A stretch of 64,000 nt of DNA from Candidatus Falkowbacteria bacterium (GTDB lineage Bacteria > Patescibacteriota > Patescibacteriia > UBA11705), in assembly GCA_003518055.1 (NCBI GenBank), contig DOZJ01000002.1:299785-363784 (forward strand), written 5' to 3'. A program made the translations under genes and the position numbers. Under the pieces are notes generated by a model. It saw only the letters and a list, made by a program, of their open reading frames with translations, made no database searches and was not told the origin of the DNA. Of the stretch, positions 1-61,542 are shown piece after piece. Positions within the stretch are counted from its first letter, which is position 1. Each line of letters begins with the position of its first letter.

Positions 1-153
1 GGATTTGATATAAATAAAGAGGCGGACAATGCGGCTGTAATCTTAACAAATGAAAAGTGTTTTTATCTAGCGATAATGGGCAAGGGTAATAATTATTGCT
101 TCAATAAAGAGAAAAACCAGGCACTGTATGAAAACATTGAAGGTGATTGGTAA
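1..153 (+). other. cas12a: Upstream coding segment of cas12a (gene continues beyond the left window edge); same frame as ORF 157..2313 and terminated by an in-frame TAA at 151-153
   Basis: Frame 1 is open from nt 1 to 150 and the other two frames have early stops. Translation ...EKCFYLAIMGKGNNYCFNKEKNQALYENIEGDW* aligns with the region immediately N-terminal to the conserved Cas12a PNKMIPKV motif. Confidence 0.7.
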
Positions 154-156
154 AAA

Positions 157-2313
157 ATGGAGTATAAATATTTGCCCAACACATCAAGGATGATACCGAA
201 GGTCACGACACAGAGAAAAGATGTTATTTCGCATTTTAAACATAGCGATGATGACTATTTATTGTCTAATCAAAAGTCATTTAACAAACCATTGAAAATA
301 AGTAAGGAGATTTTTGAGCTGAATAATAGGATATATTCACGATCAGATTTATCAGAATCGGTTATCAGAGATAAGGGTAATGGAAATGACGAAAAGAAAT
401 ATGTGAAATTGTTCCAAAAAGATTATTACGCAAAGTGTGGTGGTGGACATGATGTATATCAGCAGGCATTATGGAAATGGATCGATTTTTGTAAGGAGTT
501 TTTGTCATGTTATATGAGCTGTGAGTATTTTGATTTTTCTTCTCTCATACAAACAGCTGATTATGACTCAGTTGAGATTTTTTACGCTGATGTTGACAAA
601 GCCTGTTATGTGAAAAAGTTTGTCCAAATTAACGCACAGCAGTTAAACAGGTTGGTGTCTGAAGGGAAGGCGTATTTATTTAAGATATATAATAAAGACT
701 TTTCAGAAAGGAAAATCAAGATTACTGACGGAAAGGATAATCTGGAAACGATCATGTTAAAAAGCCTATTTTCAAAGGATAATATTGAAAGCAAGGTGAT
801 ACAACTTAATGGGGGTGCTGAATTATTTTTCCGTAAAGCCAGTGTTGATCGGGTGAATGATGAAAAAAGAAGTAAGAATATAGATATTGTAACCCATAAA
901 AGATATACGGAGGATAAATATTTCTTTCATTTTCCAATCACGATAAATTTTGGTGAGAAAGTAAGTGGTCAGCAATTTAGGGATAATGTTTTTAAAAAAA
1001 TCAAACAGGATGACCTTAATATCATCGGTATTGATCGTGGCGAAAAGCACCTGCTTTATTATTCGGTTGTGAGTCCACGAGGTGAATTATTAGAGCGAGG
1101 GAGTCTCAATCAGATTGAATCTGGCGGAGAAGTTCAAGAAAAAGAAATTTCCGAACAATTTGATGATCATGGTGCACTTAAAAGTGTTGAGTTGGTCGAA
1201 ACAGGGAATGAAGTTAAATATGTAGATTATCATGTATTGCTCGATTATTATGAGAAGAAACGCAATTTGGCTCGTCGCGATTGGCAGACAATTGGCAAGA
1301 TAAAGGATTTAAAATCCGGCTATTTATCACAAGTAATACATAAAATCTGTCAGTTAATATTGAAGTATGATGCCATTGTTGTCATGGAGGATCTGAATGT
1401 TGAGTTTAAAGCCAAGCGAGCAGCCAAAGTTGAGAAGTCAGTTTATAAAAATTTTGAGTTGGCATTGGCAAGAAAGTTAAATCACCTGATTTTGAAAGAC
1501 AAATCTATCAATGATATCGGAGGAACATTGAAGGCATATCAGCTGACACCTGTAATTCCTGCAAACGATGTTGGTAAATTTGATAAAGCTAGTCAATGGG
1601 GGATTATGTTTTATGTGCGCGCCAACTATACCTCAATCACCGACCCATTGACCGGTTGGCGGCAACATAAATATATTTCAAATTCAGATAACATCGGAAA
1701 AATTCAGGAATTTTTTAATCCGGATTCTGGAGTGCAAATAAACTATGATACTGAGAAACAATGTTATAGATTCAGTTATGGTCAGCAGTTTGATGACAAT
1801 ACAATAAAACAGTGGGATCTGTTCGCTTATGAAGGTTTAGAGCGGTTTTATTGGGATAATAAAAACAGATCAGTGAAGAAGTATAGTTTGTATACAGAAT
1901 TTGAACATATTTTTAGTGATTTGGATAAGTCAAAAAACATTAATCATCAGATTGAAGGTATGACCGGATTTGGGTGGAAAAGTTTAGTGTTTTTCTGGAA
2001 TTTATTGAATCAGATAAGAAATACCGATAGATTAAAGCAGGGGGATGAAAATGATTTTCTACAATCACCTGCTTGGTCGGATCGTCAAGAGTGTTTTTAT
2101 GATAGCCGCAAAGCGTTGGCTGGATTGCCTACAAATGGTGACGCCAATGGAGCTTTTAATATTTCGCGAAAAGGCTTGATTTTATTGGATAGAATAAAGA
2201 GATGCCCGGATCTTTCAAGGTTTGGTAATAATAACAATGGTCGTAATCCTGAAAATGGATATTTTATTTCTGATGTAGAGTGGGATAAATTTGTCCAATC
2301 TGCGAATGAATAA
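157..2313 (+). CDS. cas12a: Type V-A CRISPR effector Cas12a (Cpf1), C-terminal 718 codons (WED/PI/RuvC/Nuc region)
   Basis: The RMIPKV motif matches the Cas12a consensus. The RuvC-I motif IGIDRGEKHLLYYSVV, the block YLFKIYNKDFS...NLETIMLKSLFS...LNGGAELFFRKAS, and a C-terminal DANGAFNISRKG (RuvC-III) are also present. Gene order is cas12a-cas4-cas1-cas2-array. Confidence 0.9.
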   Translation: MEYKYLPNTSRMIPKVTTQRKDVISHFKHSDDDYLLSNQKSFNKPLKISKEIFELNNRIYSRSDLSESVIRDKGNGNDEKKYVKLFQKDYYAKCGGGHDVYQQALWKWIDFCKEFLSCYMSCEYFDFSSLIQTADYDSVEIFYADVDKACYVKKFVQINAQQLNRLVSEGKAYLFKIYNKDFSERKIKITDGKDNLETIMLKSLFSKDNIESKVIQLNGGAELFFRKASVDRVNDEKRSKNIDIVTHKRYTEDKYFFHFPITINFGEKVSGQQFRDNVFKKIKQDDLNIIGIDRGEKHLLYYSVVSPRGELLERGSLNQIESGGEVQEKEISEQFDDHGALKSVELVETGNEVKYVDYHVLLDYYEKKRNLARRDWQTIGKIKDLKSGYLSQVIHKICQLILKYDAIVVMEDLNVEFKAKRAAKVEKSVYKNFELALARKLNHLILKDKSINDIGGTLKAYQLTPVIPANDVGKFDKASQWGIMFYVRANYTSITDPLTGWRQHKYISNSDNIGKIQEFFNPDSGVQINYDTEKQCYRFSYGQQFDDNTIKQWDLFAYEGLERFYWDNKNRSVKKYSLYTEFEHIFSDLDKSKNINHQIEGMTGFGWKSLVFFWNLLNQIRNTDRLKQGDENDFLQSPAWSDRQECFYDSRKALAGLPTNGDANGAFNISRKGLILLDRIKRCPDLSRFGNNNNGRNPENGYFISDVEWDKFVQSANE

Positions 2314-2318
2314 TCGTC

Positions 2319-2876
2319 ATGGAATCCTACATCCCCATCTCAAAAATAAACGATTTTATTTTTTGTCCATATTCGTTAATTTATCACTCGATTTACGAAG
2401 GCTTTACCGAGAAGACATATCATGATGTGCCTCAGACAGCCGGCAAGATCAGCCATGCCAAAATTGATAAAGGCGAATACTCGAGCGCCAAAAAATTCCT
2501 GCAAGGGATTGATGTTTATAGTGAAAAATATGGACTTTGTGGCAAAATTGATATTTTTGATCAGGAAAATGGCATATTGATCGAGCGCAAGAACAAAATT
2601 GAGCGGATATATGATGGATACAAATATCAATTATACGCTCAGTATTTTTCCCTGAACGAAATGGGGTATAACGTGAAAAAGATCGTCTTGCACGCCTTGA
2701 CGACGAATAAACGTTTCAACCTTCCATTGCCCCGAGGCGAAGAATTGAAAAAGTTTGAATCCACCATCGCCGCTATTAATGATTTTAATCCGTTGCGTGA
2801 TAAAGTTGATATTAATCCACAAAAATGCGCTCATTGCATTTATTATGTCCTTTGCGCTTATGCTGTCAGCCAATGA
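2319..2876 (+). CDS. cas4: Cas4 (RecB-like nuclease with a 4-Cys cluster)
   Basis: N-terminal Cys (FIFCPYSL) and C-terminal C-x2-C-x5-C (CAHCIYYVLC); position between cas12a and cas1. Confidence 0.8.
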   Translation: MESYIPISKINDFIFCPYSLIYHSIYEGFTEKTYHDVPQTAGKISHAKIDKGEYSSAKKFLQGIDVYSEKYGLCGKIDIFDQENGILIERKNKIERIYDGYKYQLYAQYFSLNEMGYNVKKIVLHALTTNKRFNLPLPRGEELKKFESTIAAINDFNPLRDKVDINPQKCAHCIYYVLCAYAVSQ

Positions 2877-3798
2877 TTTCGCGGAAAAACAAATATTGAT
2901 TGTGAAGAATTCTCAACAAACCGAATCCAAATTGCGGTTTCAGAATGATAATCTTGTGTTTGCGAACGAAGAAACTGAGAATCGCGTATCCTGTCATAAG
3001 GTCTTAGCGGTATTTGTTGTCGGAGACACATCTATCTCTACGGTCTTGTTGCGTAAGGCCCGCCAGCACGGTATATCTTTTTTCTTGCTCAATCGCAATT
3101 TAGAGTCATACGCGGAAATATTATCGTCAGCCGAAGGCAATTATCTCCTGCGGCAAAAACAATATACGTTTTTGTCTGAATTGTCTGCCGCTAAAAAATT
3201 GGTTGCAAATAAAGCTTTGAATCAGCTTATGCTTTTAAGAGGAGCTGGAAAGATAGCTGATTACGATCTGGGTATCTTCGCCAAAATCGAAAACGCTAAT
3301 ACTGATAAAGAACTTTTAGGGCTTGAGGGGAGCGTGACCAAGAAATTTTTCCAAAGTTATTTCAAGGAGATCGATTGGTATCGCCGTCTGCCGCGAGCCA
3401 AAGTTGATGTTAACAACCTCCTGCTGGATATTGGCTACACAATGATGCTCAACTATATTGATTCACTCTTGCACTTGTTCGGCTTTGATGTTTACAAAGG
3501 GTTTTATCATAAACTATTTTTTAAAAGAAAATCATTATCCTGTGATATCGTGGAACCGTTTCGATGTATTATTGATAAGCAATTATTGAAATCATTTAAT
3601 CTAAAACAAATTGACTTAAAAGATTTTACTCATCGGCAAGGAAAATATGCCGTTTCGTATGATAAATCCACAAAATACATGAGGATTTTCTTTGAAGTCA
3701 TAATGGATCATAAGGATGATATTTACCAGTATATTTATCACTTCTATCGTTATATGAACGGATCTGAGCCTGAATTTCCGGAATTTAAATTGAAATAA
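2845..3798 (+). CDS. cas1: Cas1 integrase (start at ATG 2845 or 2860, overlapping the cas4 stop)
   Basis: A 310-320 aa protein between cas4 and cas2. The ORF track's upstream extension overlaps cas4 in another frame, so the start was trimmed to the first in-frame ATGs near the cas4 stop. Confidence 0.75.
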   Translation: MSFALMLSANDFAEKQILIVKNSQQTESKLRFQNDNLVFANEETENRVSCHKVLAVFVVGDTSISTVLLRKARQHGISFFLLNRNLESYAEILSSAEGNYLLRQKQYTFLSELSAAKKLVANKALNQLMLLRGAGKIADYDLGIFAKIENANTDKELLGLEGSVTKKFFQSYFKEIDWYRRLPRAKVDVNNLLLDIGYTMMLNYIDSLLHLFGFDVYKGFYHKLFFKRKSLSCDIVEPFRCIIDKQLLKSFNLKQIDLKDFTHRQGKYAVSYDKSTKYMRIFFEVIMDHKDDIYQYIYHFYRYMNGSEPEFPEFKLK

Positions 3799-3799
3799 T

Positions 3800-4081
3800 A
3801 TGTTTATAATCAGCTATGATTTCAAAGACGACAAGGTTAGGGCACGTTTTTCCAAATACATCAAAAAGTATGGCCGCAAAATCCAATATTCCGTTTATGA
3901 GATCAAGAATAGTGATCGGGTCTTGAAAAATATCGCCAAAGAGATAGAATTGAAGTACGCAAAGCAATTCACAGGAGCTGACAGCATTCTTATCTTTCCT
4001 GTTTGTGAAACCTGCAAGAAAAAAGTAATGCGGTATGGTTACGCGGCTAACGAGGAAAAAGAGGTTATTGTTTTTGAATAG
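3800..4081 (+). CDS. cas2: Cas2
   Basis: 93 aa with N-terminus MFIISYDFKDDKVRARFSKYIKKYGRKIQYSVYE, typical of Cas2; immediately precedes the array. Confidence 0.85.
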   Translation: MFIISYDFKDDKVRARFSKYIKKYGRKIQYSVYEIKNSDRVLKNIAKEIELKYAKQFTGADSILIFPVCETCKKKVMRYGYAANEEKEVIVFE

Positions 4082-4258
4082 TGTCTTTTGACAATAAAAA
4101 ATACGAAAGAGTATTGAAAGTATAAATTTCTGTATTGATATTTATTAGACAAAAACCCCAGTCCTTATATTTCCAAAAAAGCTAATTTAAGCTAAAAAGT
4201 CGTGTTGGCCTTAGTTGCCTCATTTGCATCTTTTTGGCTTAAATTAGCAAACTGGACT
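4082..4258 (+). promoter_or_regulatory. AT-rich CRISPR leader with a long imperfect inverted repeat (arms about 4176-4199 and 4230-4252)
   Basis: AAAAAGCTAATTTAAGCTAAAAAG ... CTTTTTGGCTTAAATTAGCAAAC immediately upstream of repeat 1. Confidence 0.6.
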
Positions 4259-5470
4259 GTCTAATATCAATATTCAATTTCTACTTTCGTAGATCAACAT
4301 TGTTTTGCGTAAACTGCAACTGTCTAATATCAATATTCAATTTCTACTTTCGTAGATATTTCTCTTCCTGAACCTTGCTCTGTGTCTAATATCAATATTC
4401 AATTTCTACTTTCGTAGATGATTGTTCCACTTCGCCGTCCGGCCAGTCTAATATCAATATTCAATTTCTACTTTCGTAGATATAACTATATAAGTTAAAT
4501 AAATCAGTCTAATATCAATATTCAATTTCTACTTTCGTAGATGCAACGGCGTTCAGACATATATAGAGGTCTAATATCAATATTCAATTTCTACTTTCGT
4601 AGATGCCGACGTAATGGGTGTTAGGTCTATGTCTAATATCAATATTCAATTTCTACTTTCGTAGATGTTGGGTATTCGGATAATACAGCGAGTCTAATAT
4701 CAATATTCAATTTCTACTTTCGTAGATGAAATCCTGAATATGATTCGGCTAAAGTCTAATATCAATATTCAATTTCTACTTTCGTAGATATTCAGCCGTT
4801 GCTTCTCTAACATAGTGTCTAATATCAATATTCAATTTCTACTTTCGTAGATCTTAAGCAGGCTTTTTCAATTGACGCGTCTAATATCAATATTCAATTT
4901 CTACTTTCGTAGATCTCCGGCCCGATAAAATAGCGTCAGGTATAATATCAATATTCAATTTCTACTTTCGTAGATACTTCGTGAAAATCAAATCACCGTG
5001 TGTCTAATATCAATATTCAATTTCTACTTTCGTAGATTCTTGCAAATGCCGAAACGCCAATAATGTCTAATATCAATATTCAATTTCTACTTTCGTAGAT
5101 ATGGGGGAACTTGCGGGCGTGGCTGGTCTAATATCAATATTCAATTTCTACTTTCGTAGATGCTACCAATGGCACAAACCTGTATAGTCTAATATCAATA
5201 TTCAATTTCTACTTTCGTAGATGCAGTCCCAGACCTCCTTTTGATTAAGTCTAATATCAATATTCAATTTCTACTTTCGTAGATCCATCCTCATAACTGG
5301 CGTCATCAGCAGTCTAATATCAATATTCAATTTCTACTTTCGTAGATCAAAATGCCTGTGAATCCACCATAAAGTCTAATATCAATATTCAATTTCTACT
5401 TTCGTAGATATAGAAAACGCCACATCACCTGCGCGTCTAATATCAATATTCAATTTCTACTTTCGTAGAT
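4259..5470 (+). CRISPR. CRISPR array: 20 x 36-bp repeat GTCTAATATCAATATTCAATTTCTACTTTCGTAGAT with 19 spacers of 25-27 nt; repeat 12 (4940-4975) has a C>A variant at its third base
   Basis: Repeat starts counted at 4259, 4322, 4384, 4446, 4507, 4569, 4631, 4692, 4754, 4817, 4879, 4940, 5002, 5065, 5126, 5187, 5249, 5312, 5374 and 5435. The 3' end of the repeat, AATTTCTACTTTCGTAGAT, is the canonical Cas12a crRNA handle (UCUACU-N-GUAGAU stem), oriented for plus-strand transcription. Confidence 0.97.
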
Positions 5471-45748: not shown

Positions 45749-46432
45749 GCGTCAGGTTCGGATGGCTCGACTCGGCGCCTTGACGAGCAGCGAGATGCCG
45801 GTCGCCTTCCAGAAGAGCCAGTTGATCCCGTAGAGGCTGGTGTAGACCACCGCGATCGCGAAGGCCAGCCCACAGCCGATCACGACCGTGTTCAGTAGGT
45901 GCTTCGGATCGAGGACGGTGCCGGTGATCAGGCCGTTTGCCAGCGAGTTGGCCAAGCCGGCGAGCATGATCAGGTTGAAACGTTCGCGCAGGGTCAGGTC
46001 GCGATCCCGCTCGCAGAAAACGAGCATCAGGACCAACAGCTGAGCGAATGCGAAGAGGAGCAGATAGAACTCGAGACTCGCCGCCGCATGCAGATTTGCG
46101 TACTGAATTGGGGCGAGCATCGCGGCCTCGAACATGACCCACATCCTGGCGAACGCTGGGTCGCAGCCGTACGCGCGGAAGTTGTTGGCGACGTAGACCG
46201 CGCCCTGGAGCAGCATGTAGATCGTGAAGAACACCATGATGGTCTGGAACAGCGGTGACTCGATTTGGAGCGTGGGGAGGTAGGTCGCTGCCCACTCGCT
46301 CATGGACGCGTGGTCCATGAACGGGGGCATCTCGACGATGAACAACCGAAACGCCAGGCTGGCGAGAAACGCCAGCGCGATGTTCACGTACGCCCACCGA
46401 TCCACCTGGAAGAACTTGCGACTTTCGTCCAT
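45749..46432 (-). CDS. GC-rich 6-TM membrane protein A (226 aa from the second ATG), paralogue of 47253..47948
   Basis: GGAGGG Shine-Dalgarno 5 nt upstream of ATG 46432; six hydrophobic helices; shares motifs with protein B (EMPPF.../ELPVYF..., LLQGAVYVANNF/LMFGAVYYANHF). Confidence 0.65.
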
Positions 46433-46500
46433 GATTCCCTCCATGTCAGCGCCTTAGCGCGTGTTCAGTGTACAGTTGACGTTGGACGTTTAGTCCGCGG

Positions 46501-46632
46501 TTACCGACTGCGCCACGGCTGCCCCTGCTCGATGGCCTTGGTTTCGGCTTCGCTCAGGGCGTCGCGGTGCATGTCCATCAGGATGGAGGCGACCACGAAC
46601 AGGTTTCGAACGGCGGCGGCGATGCGCTTCAT
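46501..46632 (-). CDS. 43-aa peptide MKRIAAAVRNLFVVASILMDMHRDALSEAETKAIEQGQPWRSR (not in the ORF track)
   Basis: GGAGA Shine-Dalgarno 8 nt upstream; lies between the module-1 promoter and membrane protein A; GC-rich codons. Confidence 0.45.
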   Translation of the reverse strand: MKRIAAAVRNLFVVASILMDMHRDALSEAETKAIEQGQPWRSR

Positions 46633-46674
46633 TTAGAGTATCTCCTGTCTGGTTGTCGAAGATCTTAATCAACC

Positions 46675-46703
46675 ATTATATCACATTTTTCATAAAAAGT
46701 CAA
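46675..46703 (-). promoter_or_regulatory. Module-1 promoter, perfect TTGACT-N17-TATAAT (minus strand)
   Basis: The reverse complement reads TTGACTTTTTATGAAAAATGTGATATAAT. Confidence 0.7.
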
Positions 46704-46735
46704 TAGTAAGTGGTTTTTTTACTCTTATTTATAAC

Positions 46736-46769
46736 AAAAAAGCCACCTGCTTTGATGCGAGGTTGGCTT
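46736..46769 (-). terminator. Module-2 terminator (minus strand): AAGCCAACCTCGCATCAAAGCAGGTGGCTTTTTT
   Basis: Hairpin + T6 immediately 3' of the lipoprotein gene and just upstream of the module-1 promoter. Confidence 0.6.
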
Positions 46770-46802
46770 GGTCACTAGCGATGTAGTGTTGAGTACCTAT
46801 GT

Positions 46803-47240
46803 TCAGTTCGCGTAGTCGTCGTACTTCGTCAGCCGATCCCACCGACTATAGACAGGGGAGATCAGGTCGCTCGAGAGTGACAGGTTGTGCTCCCGCTCGG
46901 CTCGGTCGAACAGCTGGTGCAGTCGGACTGACACCAGCTGCAGCTCGCCGCTCTGGCGATATTCCGAGCTGTACTTGGGGTTCGGGGAGAGCACATCGTC
47001 GTAGGCGATTCGGAGATCTCGCCACTCCTGCCAGTCTCGGACTTCCGTGTGGATGTCCTCGGTCTCGACCTGACGAATCAGGTCGTTAAGGTTGGTGACG
47101 CAGTCGTCGTAGGCCAGCAGGTACTGCTGAGCCTTGGTCAGACTCCCGCAGCCCGACCCGCCGGTGATGGCGGCCAAGAGCAGGAGCGCGAAGGCGATGA
47201 TGATGGCGATGGATCCGAGCGATGACTTGGGCTTGTTCAC
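46803..47240 (-). CDS. GC-rich putative lipoprotein (145 aa, GTG start)
   Basis: AAGGAGA Shine-Dalgarno 6 nt upstream of GTG; signal peptide ending LAAITGGSGC; begins 12 nt after the protein B stop. Confidence 0.55.
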   Translation of the reverse strand: MNKPKSSLGSIAIIIAFALLLLAAITGGSGCGSLTKAQQYLLAYDDCVTNLNDLIRQVETEDIHTEVRDWQEWRDLRIAYDDVLSPNPKYSSEYRQSGELQLVSVRLHQLFDRAEREHNLSLSSDLISPVYSRWDRLTKYDDYAN

Positions 47241-47252
47241 GCGTTGTCTCCT

Positions 47253-47948
47253 TCAGGCCGCAGCCGTCTTGACCGGGCGCTTGATGAACCAGCATACGAC
47301 GCGCTTGGTGTAGATGATCAGAAGCGACGCAGCCGAGCTGGCCGCGAAGCACACAACCACCGTGGCTGCGCCCCAGGCCAGGAAATTCCAGGCCGCGTTC
47401 GGGCCGGAGATCAGGAAGGCCGCGAAAGCGCCGAGCGCCACGTAGCCGGTGATCAGACTGGCCATGAAGCCGAGCGTCTGCCGCCAGCTGGCGCGAAGCG
47501 TCTTGAAGTGATTGGCGTAGTACACTGCGCCAAACATGAGTGTGTGGAGAGCGGTGAAGAAGATGAAGAGGCTCGTCACCGGCGTCATCGCACTCACAAC
47601 GCAGCAGCCGACCGCAGTGGCAAAGCCGAACACCCCGAGAATCAACGAAAGCCACCACACGCTGTTTTCCCGGTTTTCCCGGACGTCGCGCAGGTGCTGG
47701 ATGCTCATGATGATGAAGGCCGCGACCGAGAGCCAGAGCACGCCTTGGAGCAGGTGGGCTCCGCCGAGGTCGGTCACCATGACCGACATCTGTCCCGACT
47801 GCACCGTCCACCAGTTCTCGATGGTGGGATAGATGTGCTCGGTCGCCGGGTGGTTCACGAAGTACACCGGCAGCTCCAGCCACCCTGATATGATGGCGCC
47901 GAAACCGAAGATGACGTAGAGCAGGATCACGGAGTCGGGTTTCTTCAT
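47253..47948 (-). CDS. GC-rich 6-TM membrane protein B (231 aa), paralogue of protein A
   Basis: GGGAGA Shine-Dalgarno; six TM helices; internal duplication of the GAVY.AN.F motif. Confidence 0.65.
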   Translation of the reverse strand: MKKPDSVILLYVIFGFGAIISGWLELPVYFVNHPATEHIYPTIENWWTVQSGQMSVMVTDLGGAHLLQGVLWLSVAAFIIMSIQHLRDVRENRENSVWWLSLILGVFGFATAVGCCVVSAMTPVTSLFIFFTALHTLMFGAVYYANHFKTLRASWRQTLGFMASLITGYVALGAFAAFLISGPNAAWNFLAWGAATVVVCFAASSAASLLIIYTKRVVCWFIKRPVKTAAA

Positions 47949-48026
47949 TGACTTTCTCCCATGCGCTATTCTCGCGTCATGTTGCTATGTTTCCGTGGTG
48001 AACGTTGTTAAAGATCTTAATCGACA

Positions 48027-51355: not shown

Positions 51356-53581
51356 ATGCCTACCAACAATCCTAACGATGACATCACTTACTTTGCCAAG
51401 ACCGATTTTCGCGGTCAAGGCGTTAAGTTTGGGATTCGGCGCGATGACCGCCGCCGCCACATGTACATCATCGGTAAAACCGGTATGGGCAAGTCGGTTT
51501 TGATTGAAAATTTGGTTTATAGCGACATTATTAACGGCAATGGCGTGGCTCTGATCGATCCCCACGGCGATTCAGTTGAACAAATTATCAAATCCATACC
51601 GGCCGAACGTATCAATGATGTGGTTTATATCAATCCGGCTGATCTTGATTTCCCGGTCGCTTTTAATGTTTTGGAAAAGGTTGAAGCCAAATATCGCCAC
51701 CTCATCGCCTCGGGCATTGTCGGGGTGTTCAAAAAACTCTGGGCTGACAGCTGGGGCCCACGTTTGGAGTATTTACTGCGCAACGCGATTTTGGCCCTGC
51801 TTGATTATCCCGACAGCACGCTGCTCGGTGTTAACCGGCTTTTTATTGACAAAGATTACCGCAAAAAGGTGGTAGCAAAAGTCAAAGATCCGGTCGTCAA
51901 AGCTTTCTGGGAGGATGAATTTTCCAAATACAATCAGTCGTTTATGGTTGAGGCGATCGCGCCTATTCAAAACAAGGTCGGACAGTTTTTGTCGACATCG
52001 TTGGTCCGCAATCTGGTCGGTCAGGTGAAATCAACCATTGATATGCGCAAGATTATGGATGATGGCAAGATTCTACTGGTTAATTTGTCCAAAGGTAGAA
52101 TCGGTGAAGACTCTTCCGCCATGATCGGCAATATGATCGTTACCAAACTGCAGCTGGCCGCTATGAGCCGAGTGGATATGCCGGAAAGTGAGCGCCGCGA
52201 TTTTTATTTATATGTTGATGAGTTCCAAAACTTCGCTACCGAATCATTCGCCAACATTTTATCCGAAGCTCGAAAATACAAATTAAATTTGATTGTCGGT
52301 CATCAATACATCGAACAGCTTGACGAGACGGTTTCCGCCGCGATTTTTGGTAACGTCGGCACATTCGTCGTTTTCAGAGTCGGCGCCGCCGATGCCGAGG
52401 TGCTGGTCAAGGAGTTTGAACCGTTTTTCCTCGAAGAAGACCTGGTCAACTTACCCAAATATCATGTTTATTTGAAATTAATGATCAATGGTGTAGCCTC
52501 TGATCCGTTTAGCGCCGCCACCTTGCCGCCGCATTCGGTTGAAACCGGCACAGAGGAAACCGTGATTGCCGTTTCTCGTGAACGCTATGGCCGCCCGCGC
52601 GAGATGGTTGAAGACAAGATTGCCCGCTGGAGCGGGATTGAAACCGAAGAAATGCTGGAAAAACTGGAAAGAGATCAATTAGATAAAAAAATAAAAAAAG
52701 TTCAAGCCAAAGGCATTGATTTTCTAGCCAGTCTGGATGGTTATTTGCATCAAGAAGACGAGGTTGAAACCAATGATGACGGGACTCCGAGCGTCGAAGA
52801 GGAATACGTGGTGAATTGTAATTCTTGCGGCGAAAAAACCAAAATTACTTTCAAGCCGGATGGTGTTAGACCTGTATATTGTAAAGATTGTTTGAGCGAA
52901 TATCGGCGCCAGCAATCAACGGCGGAAAATCTCAGCCAAGGCATTAGCCCGGTGGCAAAAGAACGTGATGATGAAGATGACCGGCCTTCGAAGTGGCCTA
53001 AAAAGAAAAAATTTATTGATTATGATCGCGCGCGCAAGGTTCAAGATTCGTTAAAACGGCCGGTTACGCCGCCTCCAACTCCGGCGCCGAGACCAAGTTT
53101 TCAAACCGCACCAAAACCAACCGTTAGTAGCACTACAACGGTCAATTCAAAACCAACAACAACAATAACCACAACAACAACGACAACAACACAGCGTCCA
53201 TCAAGCAGTGCAGTTCAGCCGTCCTCTCAATCTCGACCGGCCCAGCCATCAAAACCGGCAGCGGTTGTTAATCAAGCTGCAGGCACTCCACGCCCCGCGA
53301 AGCCGCCAACATCCCCGGCCGCTATGACCAAACCAATCACACCGCCACGGCCCAAAGTTGAACCCAAACCGCTCAGTCAAGGTGAAATCGTCGCCAAAGA
53401 CACGCCGGAAGAAATTTCCTTAGCCGCGGCCTTATCCCAAGGCGTGCAGACATTCTCCGGTAAAAAACGGAAAGATTTAAAATTGGATGATGATATATTT
53501 GCCAATTATCAAAAAATGATCAGCGGCGGCGAGGCTGACGACGACGAGGCTTCGGCTGAAGGTTTGAAAGTAGCCGAGTAA
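51356..53581 (+). CDS. TrwB/VirD4/TraD-like P-loop ATPase with a C-terminal CxxC...CxxC zinc ribbon and a Thr/Pro-rich disordered tail
   Basis: YIIGKTGMGKSVLIENL...ALIDPHGD (Walker A and coupling-protein-like block); Walker B LYVDEFQNF; zinc ribbon CNSCGEKTKITFKPDGVRPVYCKDC; the tail is encoded partly by an (ACA)n tract. Confidence 0.6.
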   Translation: MPTNNPNDDITYFAKTDFRGQGVKFGIRRDDRRRHMYIIGKTGMGKSVLIENLVYSDIINGNGVALIDPHGDSVEQIIKSIPAERINDVVYINPADLDFPVAFNVLEKVEAKYRHLIASGIVGVFKKLWADSWGPRLEYLLRNAILALLDYPDSTLLGVNRLFIDKDYRKKVVAKVKDPVVKAFWEDEFSKYNQSFMVEAIAPIQNKVGQFLSTSLVRNLVGQVKSTIDMRKIMDDGKILLVNLSKGRIGEDSSAMIGNMIVTKLQLAAMSRVDMPESERRDFYLYVDEFQNFATESFANILSEARKYKLNLIVGHQYIEQLDETVSAAIFGNVGTFVVFRVGAADAEVLVKEFEPFFLEEDLVNLPKYHVYLKLMINGVASDPFSAATLPPHSVETGTEETVIAVSRERYGRPREMVEDKIARWSGIETEEMLEKLERDQLDKKIKKVQAKGIDFLASLDGYLHQEDEVETNDDGTPSVEEEYVVNCNSCGEKTKITFKPDGVRPVYCKDCLSEYRRQQSTAENLSQGISPVAKERDDEDDRPSKWPKKKKFIDYDRARKVQDSLKRPVTPPPTPAPRPSFQTAPKPTVSSTTTVNSKPTTTITTTTTTTTQRPSSSAVQPSSQSRPAQPSKPAAVVNQAAGTPRPAKPPTSPAAMTKPITPPRPKVEPKPLSQGEIVAKDTPEEISLAAALSQGVQTFSGKKRKDLKLDDDIFANYQKMISGGEADDDEASAEGLKVAE

Positions 53582-61077: not shown

Positions 61078-61160
61078 TCAGTGATTAGCGATTAGCAATT
61101 AGCGATTAGTAACTAGCGATTAGTAATTAGTAACTAGCAAATAGCGATTAGCACTATTAC
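61078..61160 (+). repeat. Array of about 11 heptamers (GATTAGC/AATTAGC/AACTAGC...), left arm of an inverted-repeat pair
   Basis: gtgattagcgattagcaattagcgattagtaactagcgattagtaattagtaactagcaaatagcgattagcac. Confidence 0.8.
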
Positions 61161-61176
61161 ATAGGAAATAGTTATT

Positions 61177-61542
61177 ATGAGTAATATAGACAATTTTAGA
61201 GATTTGAAAGCCTGGCAGCACAATCATCAAATTGTTATCAAAATATATCAATTAACCAAAAAATTTCCCGATGAAGAAAGGTTTGGTCTTTGCAGCCAGG
61301 TCAGGCGCTCTGCTTCGTCAATAACCGCTAATATTTCTGAAGGTTTTGGTCGTTATTATTACAAAGATAAGATACGATTTTATTATTTCGCCAGAGCATC
61401 AAGCGTGGAAACCCAAAACCATTTACTTTTAGCTGCTGATCTTGGATATCTATCAAAAGAAATTGTAGAAAATTTATTTGTGCAATTAGGTGAGGGCCAA
61501 AAAATGATAAACGGTTTAATTAACTCATTAAATTCCAGATAG
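61177..61542 (+). CDS. Four-helix-bundle protein of the 23S-rRNA-IVS / Avd family
   Basis: DLKAWQHNHQIVIKIYQLTKKFPDEERFGLCSQVRRSASSITANISEGFGR...ETQNHLLLAADLGYLSKE matches the family consensus closely. Confidence 0.8.
   Translation: MSNIDNFRDLKAWQHNHQIVIKIYQLTKKFPDEERFGLCSQVRRSASSITANISEGFGRYYYKDKIRFYYFARASSVETQNHLLLAADLGYLSKEIVENLFVQLGEGQKMINGLINSLNSR

What the first reader, a model, noticed from the sequence alone, without database searches (positions are those of the whole stretch)
1..2313. cas12a reading frame interrupted by an in-frame TAA at 151-153, within the conserved segment just upstream of the PNKMIPKV motif
Frame 1 is open from nt 1. It encodes ...NEKCFYLAIMGKGNNYCFNKEKNQALYENIEGDW-stop-KMEYKYLPNTSRMIPKV, which aligns colinearly with Cas12a orthologues (...DYKKMIYNLLPGPNKMIPKVF).

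The stop replaces a residue that is Lys in LbCas12a as I recall it, so AAA>TAA is a single substitution. A Met codon follows 2 codons later. The options are:
1. cas12a is a pseudogene here.
2. It is expressed as two pieces: an N-terminal REC lobe (outside the window) plus a 718-aa Nuc-lobe fragment.
3. The base is a sequencing error.

The adjacent array is long and homogeneous, which argues for a recently active locus. A locus that is recently disrupted, split, or read through is worth checking.
Basis: partly seen in the sequence, partly recalled or inferred. Interest (0 to 1): 0.6.

Follow-up and report, generated by a model that had tools for sequence, protein, structure and literature searches.

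The report
Nonsense-split cas12a in a Falkowbacteria genome
A single real C-to-T mutation has put a stop codon in the middle of an otherwise perfect Cas12a gene of an uncultured groundwater bacterium, so the enzyme is now encoded as two adjacent halves; this is most likely a young loss-of-function lesion, but the halves could still be made and might reassemble.

Summary
Frame 1 is open over nt 1-150, TAA sits at 151-153, ATG at 157, and a 718-aa ORF runs to 2313. The left flank, recovered from public contigs, holds a complete 723-aa Cas12a N-terminus. The gene is therefore 1,443 codons with exactly one internal stop.

It is not a sequencing error. Five contigs from five assemblies (at least three sequencing runs) and a GenBank Falkowbacteria MAG carry it; four contigs are base-identical across the overlap and the fifth differs at one intergenic base. 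GenBank annotates two CDS. It is not recoding: TAA ends 31 of 46 long ORFs in the window.

The closest relative (61% identity) has CAA (Gln) at this codon, so the change is most simply C>T. The break maps to AsCas12a D591, after a variable loop, 8 residues before the WED-II/PI border. The downstream Met belongs to this subclade and lies 3 nt after the stop, in an A-rich context typical of this genome's start sites.

No relative shares the break. Of 160 other cas12a loci, one carries a frameshift. Other broken cas12a genes I found are ordinary lesions: frameshifts, an IS insertion, decay.

Verdict: a young nonsense lesion, probably loss of function (about 0.5). A working two-piece Cas12a remains open (about 0.3). 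Modest interest.

The parts
1..150 (+). Last 50 codons (674-723) of the N-terminal cas12a ORF. The ORF begins outside the window at L001:7826 and is 723 aa long: WED-I, REC1, REC2 and most of WED-II.
   Evidence: Annotated in GenBank as HCC23017.1, hypothetical protein.
151..153 (+). In-frame TAA at codon 724 of cas12a. It corresponds to CAA (Gln) in the closest relative and to D591 of AsCas12a.
139..147 (+). GAAGGTGAT, which matches the Shine-Dalgarno consensus at 8 of 9 positions, 9 nt before ATG157. Its relevance is doubtful, because most genes in this window have no SD and instead start after A/T-rich stretches like the 'taaaaa' found here.
157..2313 (+). C-terminal cas12a ORF of 718 aa: last WED-II strand (MEYKYLP), PI domain, WED-III, RuvC-I/II/III, bridge helix and Nuc. 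The catalytic motifs IGIDRGE, MEDLN and NGDANGA are intact, as is the Arg in NQIRNTD.
   Evidence: GenBank HCC23018.1, 'type V CRISPR-associated protein Cpf1'.
2319..2876 (+). cas4
   Evidence: Pfam Cas_Cas4; gene call.
2860..3798 (+). cas1 (312 aa as called on the public contigs)
   Evidence: Pfam Cas_Cas1, E = 1.8e-43; gene call.
3800..4081 (+). cas2
   Evidence: Pfam CRISPR_Cas2.
4082..4258 (+). A/T-rich leader between cas2 and the first repeat
   Evidence: sequence shown.
4259..5470 (+). CRISPR array of 20 repeats of 36 nt (GTCTAATATCAATATTCAATTTCTACTTTCGTAGAT). Nineteen repeats are identical. There are 19 unique spacers of 25-27 nt. The repeat ends in the Cas12a-type handle AATTTCTACT-TTC-GTAGAT.

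Best explanation
A genuine point mutation, most simply CAA (Gln724) to TAA, has cut an otherwise intact 1,443-codon cas12a of a Candidatus Falkowbacteria population into two adjacent cistrons of 723 and 718 aa on one transcript. It is the only allele seen in any public assembly.

Shown:
- The stop is real.
- The genome uses TAA as an ordinary terminator.
- It is the only lesion in the gene.
- No relative shares it.

Inferred:
- Full-length Cas12a is no longer made. UAA is read by both release factors, and frameshifting cannot bridge two halves that share a frame.
- The N half is released at codon 723.
- Ribosomes probably restart at the ATG 3 nt further on, by termination-reinitiation coupling, so the C half is probably also made.

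My choice for the consequence is a young loss-of-function lesion. Interference and crRNA-guided cleavage are lost or badly crippled, because PAM reading, the WED crRNA-handle pocket and the REC-NUC hinge now span two chains. Cas4-Cas1-Cas2 and the array remain intact. The locus is at the first step of the effector decay seen in other cas12a genes.
For: The stop is real.
- Four contigs from four assemblies are 100% identical through the stop.
- A fifth contig, from run SRR2177953, differs by one intergenic base in 10.8 kb.
- The GenBank MAG annotates two CDS.

The code is standard.
- The 46 long ORFs in the window end in TAA 31, TAG 8 and TGA 7 times, with 80% coding density.
- No tRNA lies in the window or in L001.

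The lesion is single and derived.
- There is one internal stop in 1,443 codons, and the catalytic motifs are intact.
- The closest relative reads TGG CAA AAG ATG where this genome reads TGG TAA AAA ATG.
- All 120 homologues listed are 1,061-1,603 aa, i.e. unsplit.

The split is not conserved.
- Of 160 other cas12a loci, 143 are single ORFs.
- 16 are interrupted only by TGA, in lineages that recode TGA.
- One has a frameshift, and none is split at this site.

Other broken cas12a genes are ordinary decay.
- L167: 1-nt frameshift.
- L172: frameshift in REC2.
- L171: degraded N half.
- L168/L169: IS66-type insertion.

Both halves sit behind one consensus promoter at L001 7613-7640.
Against: - The position of the stop looks less random than a typical disabling hit. 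Only 12 of the 791 possible single-base nonsense mutations in this gene (1.5%) have an ATG within two codons downstream.
- The break lies just after an indel-rich loop, 8 residues before a domain border.
- The context 'taaaaaATG' resembles native start sites in this genome.
- Nothing else in 4.3 kb has decayed.
- The allele is the only one seen in any sample, and restored Q, E or K alleles are absent from 15 billion public proteins.
- Engineered split Cas9 auto-assembles on its guide RNA (PMC9795063, PMC6709367). Split Cas12a designs also exist (Kempton 2020, cited in PMC8754635).

None of this shows activity, but all of it is what a tolerated split would look like.
Confidence: 0.5

Rival explanations
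1. This is a working two-piece Cas12a. The N half (WED-I, REC1, REC2, most of WED-II) and the C half (last WED-II strand, PI, WED-III, RuvC, Nuc) are made in similar amounts from one mRNA by termination-reinitiation. They then assemble non-covalently, by beta-strand complementation in the WED domain and by joint binding of the crRNA 5' handle. Interference is retained, perhaps weakened, so the mutation was nearly neutral and could spread.
For: - An ATG that belongs to this subclade lies 3 nt after the stop. That arrangement has a 1.5% chance for a random nonsense hit.
- The upstream context is A-rich, like native starts in this genome.
- The break follows a variable loop at AsCas12a D591, near the WED-II/PI border.
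- Both ORFs and all catalytic motifs are intact.
- It is the only allele seen in five assemblies, and no intact allele is on record.
- The array is homogeneous, with 19 unique spacers.
- Guide-driven auto-assembly of split Cas9 is published.
Against: - The split is not conserved in any relative, so there is no evidence of selection acting after it arose.
- The population is nearly clonal, so sole presence of the allele carries little weight.
- The two PAM-contacting lysines (AsCas12a K548 and K607 equivalents) end up on different chains.
- Array homogeneity reflects Cas1-Cas2-Cas4 and a young array, not effector activity.
- No activity data exist for a split at this position.
- The three spacers tested have no match in IMG/VR.
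Confidence: 0.3
2. The stop is bypassed by read-through, a suppressor tRNA, or reassignment of TAA, so that a full-length 1,443-aa Cas12a is still made.
For: Both halves are in the same frame, so read-through would give a normal protein. Some related candidate phyla do recode a stop codon: 16 of the surveyed cas12a loci carry many in-frame TGA codons.
Against: - The recoding seen in relatives affects TGA, never TAA.
- In this genome TAA ends 31 of 46 long ORFs, and genes are long and uninterrupted.
- No tRNA gene lies in the 74 kb available, and there is no Rfam hit in the window.
- Frameshifting cannot help. The +1 frame after TGG-T runs into TGA within about 12 codons (read).
Confidence: 0.04
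3. The TAA is a sequencing or assembly artefact, or a minor allele, and the real gene is intact.
For: No read-level data could be inspected. All samples come from closely related groundwater datasets.
Against: - The base is identical in contigs assembled from SRR2177951, SRR2177953 and SRR2177986, in two further ENA assemblies, and in the GenBank MAG.
- No assembly in JGI metagenomes or GTDB representatives holds the 27-mer with any other base at that position.
- The restored proteins are not on record.
Confidence: 0.03

Closest known systems
Cas12a (Cpf1), type V-A CRISPR effector: AsCas12a (PDB 5B43), FnCas12a (5NFV), LbCas12a (5XUS). The nearest sequences are Falkowbacteria/Parcubacteria Cas12a P0001 and P0003 (61% identity).
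   Same: - Domain order, N-terminal SKTLKFEL motif and RuvC D/E/D motifs.
- Nuc Arg and the PAM lysine equivalents.
- cas4-cas1-cas2 operon and a 36-nt repeat with the TCTACT-N3-GTAGAT handle.
   Different: The reading frame is cut by TAA at the residue equivalent to AsCas12a D591. Every close homologue is a single chain.
Engineered split Cas9 and split Cas12a: Wright 2015 and Zetsche 2015 split Cas9; Kempton 2020 split Cas12a; Bryson 2021 split-intein dFnCas12a (PMC8754635).
   Same: A bilobed RNA-guided nuclease expressed as two polypeptides cut in a surface loop near the middle. Guide-RNA-driven auto-assembly is documented for Cas9.
   Different: Those are laboratory designs, often with dimerisation domains or inteins. 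I could not check their cut sites against this one, because the Kempton paper is not held. This split is natural, has no added domains, and no activity has been shown.
Ordinary disrupted cas effector genes: cas12a with a frameshift (L102, L167, L172), an IS66-type insertion (L168/L169) or multi-lesion decay (L171).
   Same: A type V-A effector gene broken while the adaptation genes remain alongside it. Found at a rate of roughly 1% of surveyed loci.
   Different: This one has a single clean nonsense codon with an immediate in-frame ATG and no other damage. The others are frameshifts, insertions or multiple lesions.

Membership tests
Cas12a / type V-A effector | A single RuvC-like nuclease domain with the D-E-D triad, split into three segments, plus a Nuc insertion and no HNH domain | tested here: met
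   Pfam RuvC_1 E = 3.6e-68 and no HNH hit. IGIDRGE, MEDLN and NGDANGA align with the catalytic motifs of solved Cas12a structures.
Cas12a / type V-A effector | N-terminal WED-I/REC1/REC2 lobe homologous to Cas12a | tested here: met
   The 723-aa upstream ORF carries a Pfam REC1 hit and the SKTLKFEL motif, and aligns end to end with 1,160-1,460-aa Cas12a proteins.
Cas12a / type V-A effector | PI domain with the PAM-reading lysines (AsCas12a K548 and K607) | tested here: met
   Pfam Cpf1_PI-like E = 1.6e-10. FDINKE and RMIPKV align with K548 and K607, but the two lysines now lie on different ORFs.
Cas12a / type V-A effector | CRISPR repeat whose 3' end forms the Cas12a 5' handle (AAUUUCUACU-N3-5-GUAGAU), with no tracrRNA needed | tested here: met
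   The repeat ends in AATTTCTACTTTCGTAGAT. The absence of a tracrRNA was not tested.
Cas12a / type V-A effector | Effector encoded as one uninterrupted polypeptide | tested here: not met
   TAA at codon 724. The locus is therefore a Cas12a gene by descent, but not a standard single-chain Cas12a.
Naturally split (two-cistron) functional gene | The same break point is conserved in diverged relatives | tested here: not met
   None of the 160 surveyed loci, nor the examined short hits among 150 representatives, is split at this site by a stop codon. The closest relative has CAA.
Naturally split (two-cistron) functional gene | Both parts are intact, and the downstream part has its own start codon in a usable context | tested here: met
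   There is one stop only. ATG lies 3 nt after TAA, and the A-rich context resembles native starts.
Naturally split (two-cistron) functional gene | Purifying selection on both parts after the split; the parts associate and are active | not testable with these tools
   All copies are essentially identical: two SNPs in total, one intergenic and one giving I261V. No expression or biochemical data exist.
Pseudogene | A disabling lesion that is absent from functional relatives | tested here: met
Pseudogene | Further decay: additional stops, frameshifts or loss of catalytic residues | tested here: not met
   No second lesion in 4,332 nt, and the catalytic motifs are intact. If this is a pseudogene, it is very young.
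Stop-codon reassignment or programmed recoding | The same codon occurs in frame in other conserved genes, a cognate suppressor tRNA is present, and the codon is rare as a terminator | tested here: not met
   TAA terminates 31 of 46 ORFs. There is no tRNA in 74 kb. The rest of the genome could not be searched.

The most novel reading that the evidence does not exclude
This is a naturally occurring two-subunit Cas12a. A nonsense mutation just before the WED-II/PI border, followed 3 nt later by a pre-existing Met codon, yields two translationally coupled halves that reassemble on the crRNA and still give immunity. It would be the first natural split class 2 effector, and a ready-made, nature-tested split site for Cas12a engineering.
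Probability: 0.3. Interest if true: 0.6.

Novelty: new member of a known kind. Interest (0 to 1): 0.3.

Why it matters
As it stands, this is a well-documented example of the first step of CRISPR effector loss in a candidate-phyla-radiation bacterium. There is one base change, and the adaptation genes and array are untouched. It is also a caution that GenBank carries the two halves as separate proteins, one of them labelled hypothetical.

If the halves do assemble, it would show that Cas12a tolerates a backbone break at the AsCas12a D591/M593 position without any helper domains. That matters for size-limited delivery and for logic-gated editors. It would also show that a class 2 effector can exist as a two-subunit enzyme in nature. 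The question can be settled with two expression constructs and a plasmid-interference assay.

Tried and rejected
- **Other alleles at the stop.** I scanned JGI metagenomes and GTDB representative genomes for the 27-mer around the stop, with N at its first base. There were 0 hits in each. The organism is present in JGI only as contigs that miss the junction (L006, L160).
- **Restored alleles.** An exact look-up of Q724, E724 and K724 full-length proteins among 15 billion sequences found none.
- **Suppressor tRNA or RNA signal.** ARAGORN found nothing in the window or in L001, and Rfam found nothing in the window.
- **Frameshift rescue.** Rejected, because both halves are in frame 1.
- **Selection test.** dN/dS is not possible. 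All copies are identical apart from two SNPs, and the nearest relative is only 61% identical.
- **Self-targeting spacers as a motive for inactivation.** None found in the 74 kb available.
- **Spacer targets.** The three leader-proximal spacers have no exact match in IMG/VR.
- **Shine-Dalgarno argument.** GAAGGTGAT looks like an SD, but this genome mostly lacks SD sequences, so I gave it little weight.
- **Literature.** I found no report of a natural split Cas12a. The Kempton 2020 split-Cas12a paper is not held, so its cut sites could not be compared.
- **Self hits in the first homology search.** The search did not list the two halves themselves. I therefore did not use it as evidence that an intact allele is absent.
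- **Structure prediction.** Not run. The read-through protein exceeds the 1,200-aa limit, and a single-chain model would not address whether the halves assemble.
Full report
**1. The observation**

The window begins inside a reading frame. Frame 1 is open for 50 codons (nt 1-150). It then reads TAA (151-153), AAA and ATG (157), and continues for 718 codons to TAA at 2311-2313.

Both sides are Cas12a, in one frame:
- The 718-aa ORF hits Pfam Cpf1_PI-like and RuvC_1.
- The full frame-1 translation aligns across the stop with solved Cas12a structures.
- A 128-aa junction fragment matches AsCas12a residues 528-647 at E = 8e-22.

**2. The left flank**

An exact look-up of the 718-aa product found it on seven public contigs. 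Four were returned with DNA (L001-L004), one of them 435 kb long.
- Upstream lies a 723-aa ORF whose stop codon ends 3 nt before ATG157. It carries a Pfam REC1 hit and the canonical Cas12a N-terminus FDQFTNLYELSKTLKFEL.
- The gene is therefore 1,443 codons with one internal stop, at codon 724.
- A perfect TTGACA-16-TATAAT promoter match lies 185 nt upstream of the first ATG. Nothing comparable precedes the second half, so the two halves are most likely co-transcribed.

**3. Is the stop real?**

- The four contigs, from four assemblies, are identical to the window at every overlapping base.
- A fifth contig (L005, run SRR2177953) differs by one intergenic base in 10.8 kb and has the same TAA.
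- GenBank holds the same two proteins from a Candidatus Falkowbacteria MAG: HCC23017.1 (hypothetical protein, 723 aa) and HCC23018.1 (Cpf1, 718 aa).
- No other allele was found. The 27-mer with N at the first base of the stop is absent from JGI metagenomes and GTDB representatives. Full-length proteins restored with Q, E or K are not among 15 billion public sequences.
- Read pile-ups could not be inspected.

**4. Recoding**

- The 46 long ORFs in the window end in TAA 31, TAG 8 and TGA 7 times and cover 80% of the sequence. TAA is therefore the normal terminator.
- No tRNA gene lies in the window or in the 10 kb upstream, and no Rfam family matches.
- Frameshifting is irrelevant, because both halves share one frame.
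- Relatives from TGA-recoding lineages carry many in-frame TGA codons but never TAA.

**5. What was there before**

- The closest relative with the same WED-II/PI module is P0003 (locus L167, 61% identity). It reads AAA TGG CAA AAG ATG GAT TAT AAA where this genome reads GAT TGG TAA AAA ATG GAG TAT AAA.
- Among 28 relatives the aligned residue is Q 12, E 7, K 7, T 2.
- A C>T transition of CAA is the simplest history.
- The Met two codons later occurs in the four relatives that share this module, and is Leu or Phe in the other 24. It therefore looks like an older feature of this subclade, not a new start codon.

**6. Where the break falls**

- By alignment with AsCas12a in native numbering, the stop corresponds to D591 and the new start to M593.
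- The numbering was checked against the PAM lysines. K548 falls in FDINKE on the N half, and K607 in RMIPKV on the C half.
- From the published AsCas12a domain map (my own knowledge: WED-II 526-598, PI 599-718), the break is 8 residues before the WED-II/PI border.
- It lies at the end of a stretch where relatives differ in length, so it is most likely a surface loop before the last WED-II strand.
- N half: WED-I, REC1, REC2 and most of WED-II.
- C half: that last strand, PI, WED-III, RuvC, bridge helix and Nuc, with all catalytic motifs intact.

**7. How unusual is this?**

- I fetched 80 cas12a loci from species-representative genomes and 80 from JGI metagenomes. I then tested each for a single open frame.
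  - 143 are uninterrupted.
  - 16 are interrupted only by TGA, which those lineages recode.
  - One (L102) has a frameshift in the PI region.
  - None has a stop at this site.
- A full HMMER scan of 1.84 billion representatives with the C half returned about 25 short hits among the best 150. I examined six:
  - one is this gene itself;
  - two are cut by contig ends;
  - one is cut by an IS66-type element at the equivalent of residue 727;
  - one has a frameshift in REC2;
  - one has a degraded N half.
- The closest relative, L167, has its own 1-nt frameshift in RuvC-II.
- Broken cas12a genes therefore exist at roughly the 1% level and look like ordinary decay. A split at this site is not a conserved feature of any lineage I could find.

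**8. Could the halves still be made and work?**

- Of the 791 single-base changes that would create a stop in this gene, only 12 (1.5%) have an ATG within two codons downstream. Counting ATG, GTG and TTG, the figure is 11%.
- This genome rarely uses Shine-Dalgarno sequences. Its starts follow A/T-rich stretches such as 'acataaaaaATG', and 'ggtaaaaaATG' at the break looks the same.
- Termination-reinitiation over 3 nt is a standard bacterial coupling mechanism (established knowledge). Synthesis of the C half is therefore likely.
- Non-covalent, guide-driven reassembly is documented for split Cas9, and split Cas12a designs exist. I could not verify whether any uses this position.
- These points keep the two-piece reading open, but none of them shows activity.

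**9. The array**

- The array has 20 repeats of 36 nt, 19 of them identical, and 19 unique spacers of 25-27 nt. The repeat ends in a Cas12a-type handle.
- No spacer matches the 74 kb of genome available.
- The three leader-proximal spacers have no exact match in IMG/VR.
- A homogeneous array points to a young or recently adapting locus. Adaptation depends on Cas1, Cas2 and Cas4, not on an intact effector.

**10. Verdict**

- The finding is real and correctly located.
- It is a single nonsense mutation in a horizontally acquired type V-A locus of a Falkowbacteria population. The locus is 34-37% GC, against about 46% in the flanking sequence.
- Sequencing error and recoding are excluded as far as the data allow.
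- I favour a young loss-of-function lesion (about 0.5) over a working two-piece enzyme (about 0.3). My reasons are that no relative shares the break, broken cas12a genes elsewhere are plain decay, and the population is too clonal for the allele's sole presence to carry weight.
- The placement of the stop is, however, unusually favourable for a tolerated split, and a simple experiment would decide between the two.

Noticed in passing
window 1-5470, compared with the rest of the window: The cas operon and array are 34-37% GC, while the rest of the window is about 42-50% GC. This suggests the type V-A locus was acquired horizontally.
   Followed up: no
Alignment A1, columns for residues 660-760 (P0001-P0031): Close Cas12a relatives (50-60% identical in their flanks) carry at least three unrelated WED-II/PI segments:
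- the KMxYKYLP...MIPK type found here;
- a WQRLILTNLKFQTLAGKGFL type;
- an AKRLLYxTQKIDNKNPPRWFI type.
This looks like PI-domain swapping, and presumably different PAMs.
   Followed up: partly
L167 around nt 4990-5010 (Logan SRR34068985): The closest relative's cas12a has its own 1-nt frameshift in RuvC-II. It reads ...ECGGV then TGA, with an ATG overlapping the stop, so the gene is called as 1,162 + 262 aa. This is either decay or an assembly error.
   Followed up: partly
L169 1-300 and L168 1-90: A cas12a with 33% identity is cut by the end of an IS66-type transposase gene at the equivalent of residue 727, within a few codons of the break studied here.
   Followed up: partly
L006 (JGI 3300009285, 1,468 nt): This contig contains only 574 nt of this cas12a (window 692-1265, with one I261V change) between unrelated flanks. 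It is either a chimeric assembly or a rearranged remnant.
   Followed up: partly
L001 7613-7640: A perfect sigma-70 consensus (TTGACA, 16 nt, TATAAT) lies 185 nt upstream of the cas12a start codon.
   Followed up: no
L054 9968-13390: An intact cas12a is followed in tandem by a second ORF of about 1,140 aa. That ORF has a Cas12a-like N-terminal motif (FQNLYEVTKTLRFNL) and a C-terminal Cys-rich segment, so it may be a second type V effector.
   Followed up: no
window gene starts, e.g. 9097, 15561, 33794, 39164, 55201, 56855: Most genes lack a Shine-Dalgarno sequence and start after A/T-rich stretches. This suggests SD-independent initiation in this Falkowbacteria genome.
   Followed up: partly
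window 61084-61153 and 61177-61542; 51356-53581; 46001-48000: - A heptad repeat ATTAGCA x10 lies just upstream of a gene of the 23S rRNA-intervening-sequence protein family.
- A TrwB/TraG-like coupling protein carries a treble-clef zinc finger.
- A 58.6% GC island holds two ORFs without Pfam hits.
   Followed up: no
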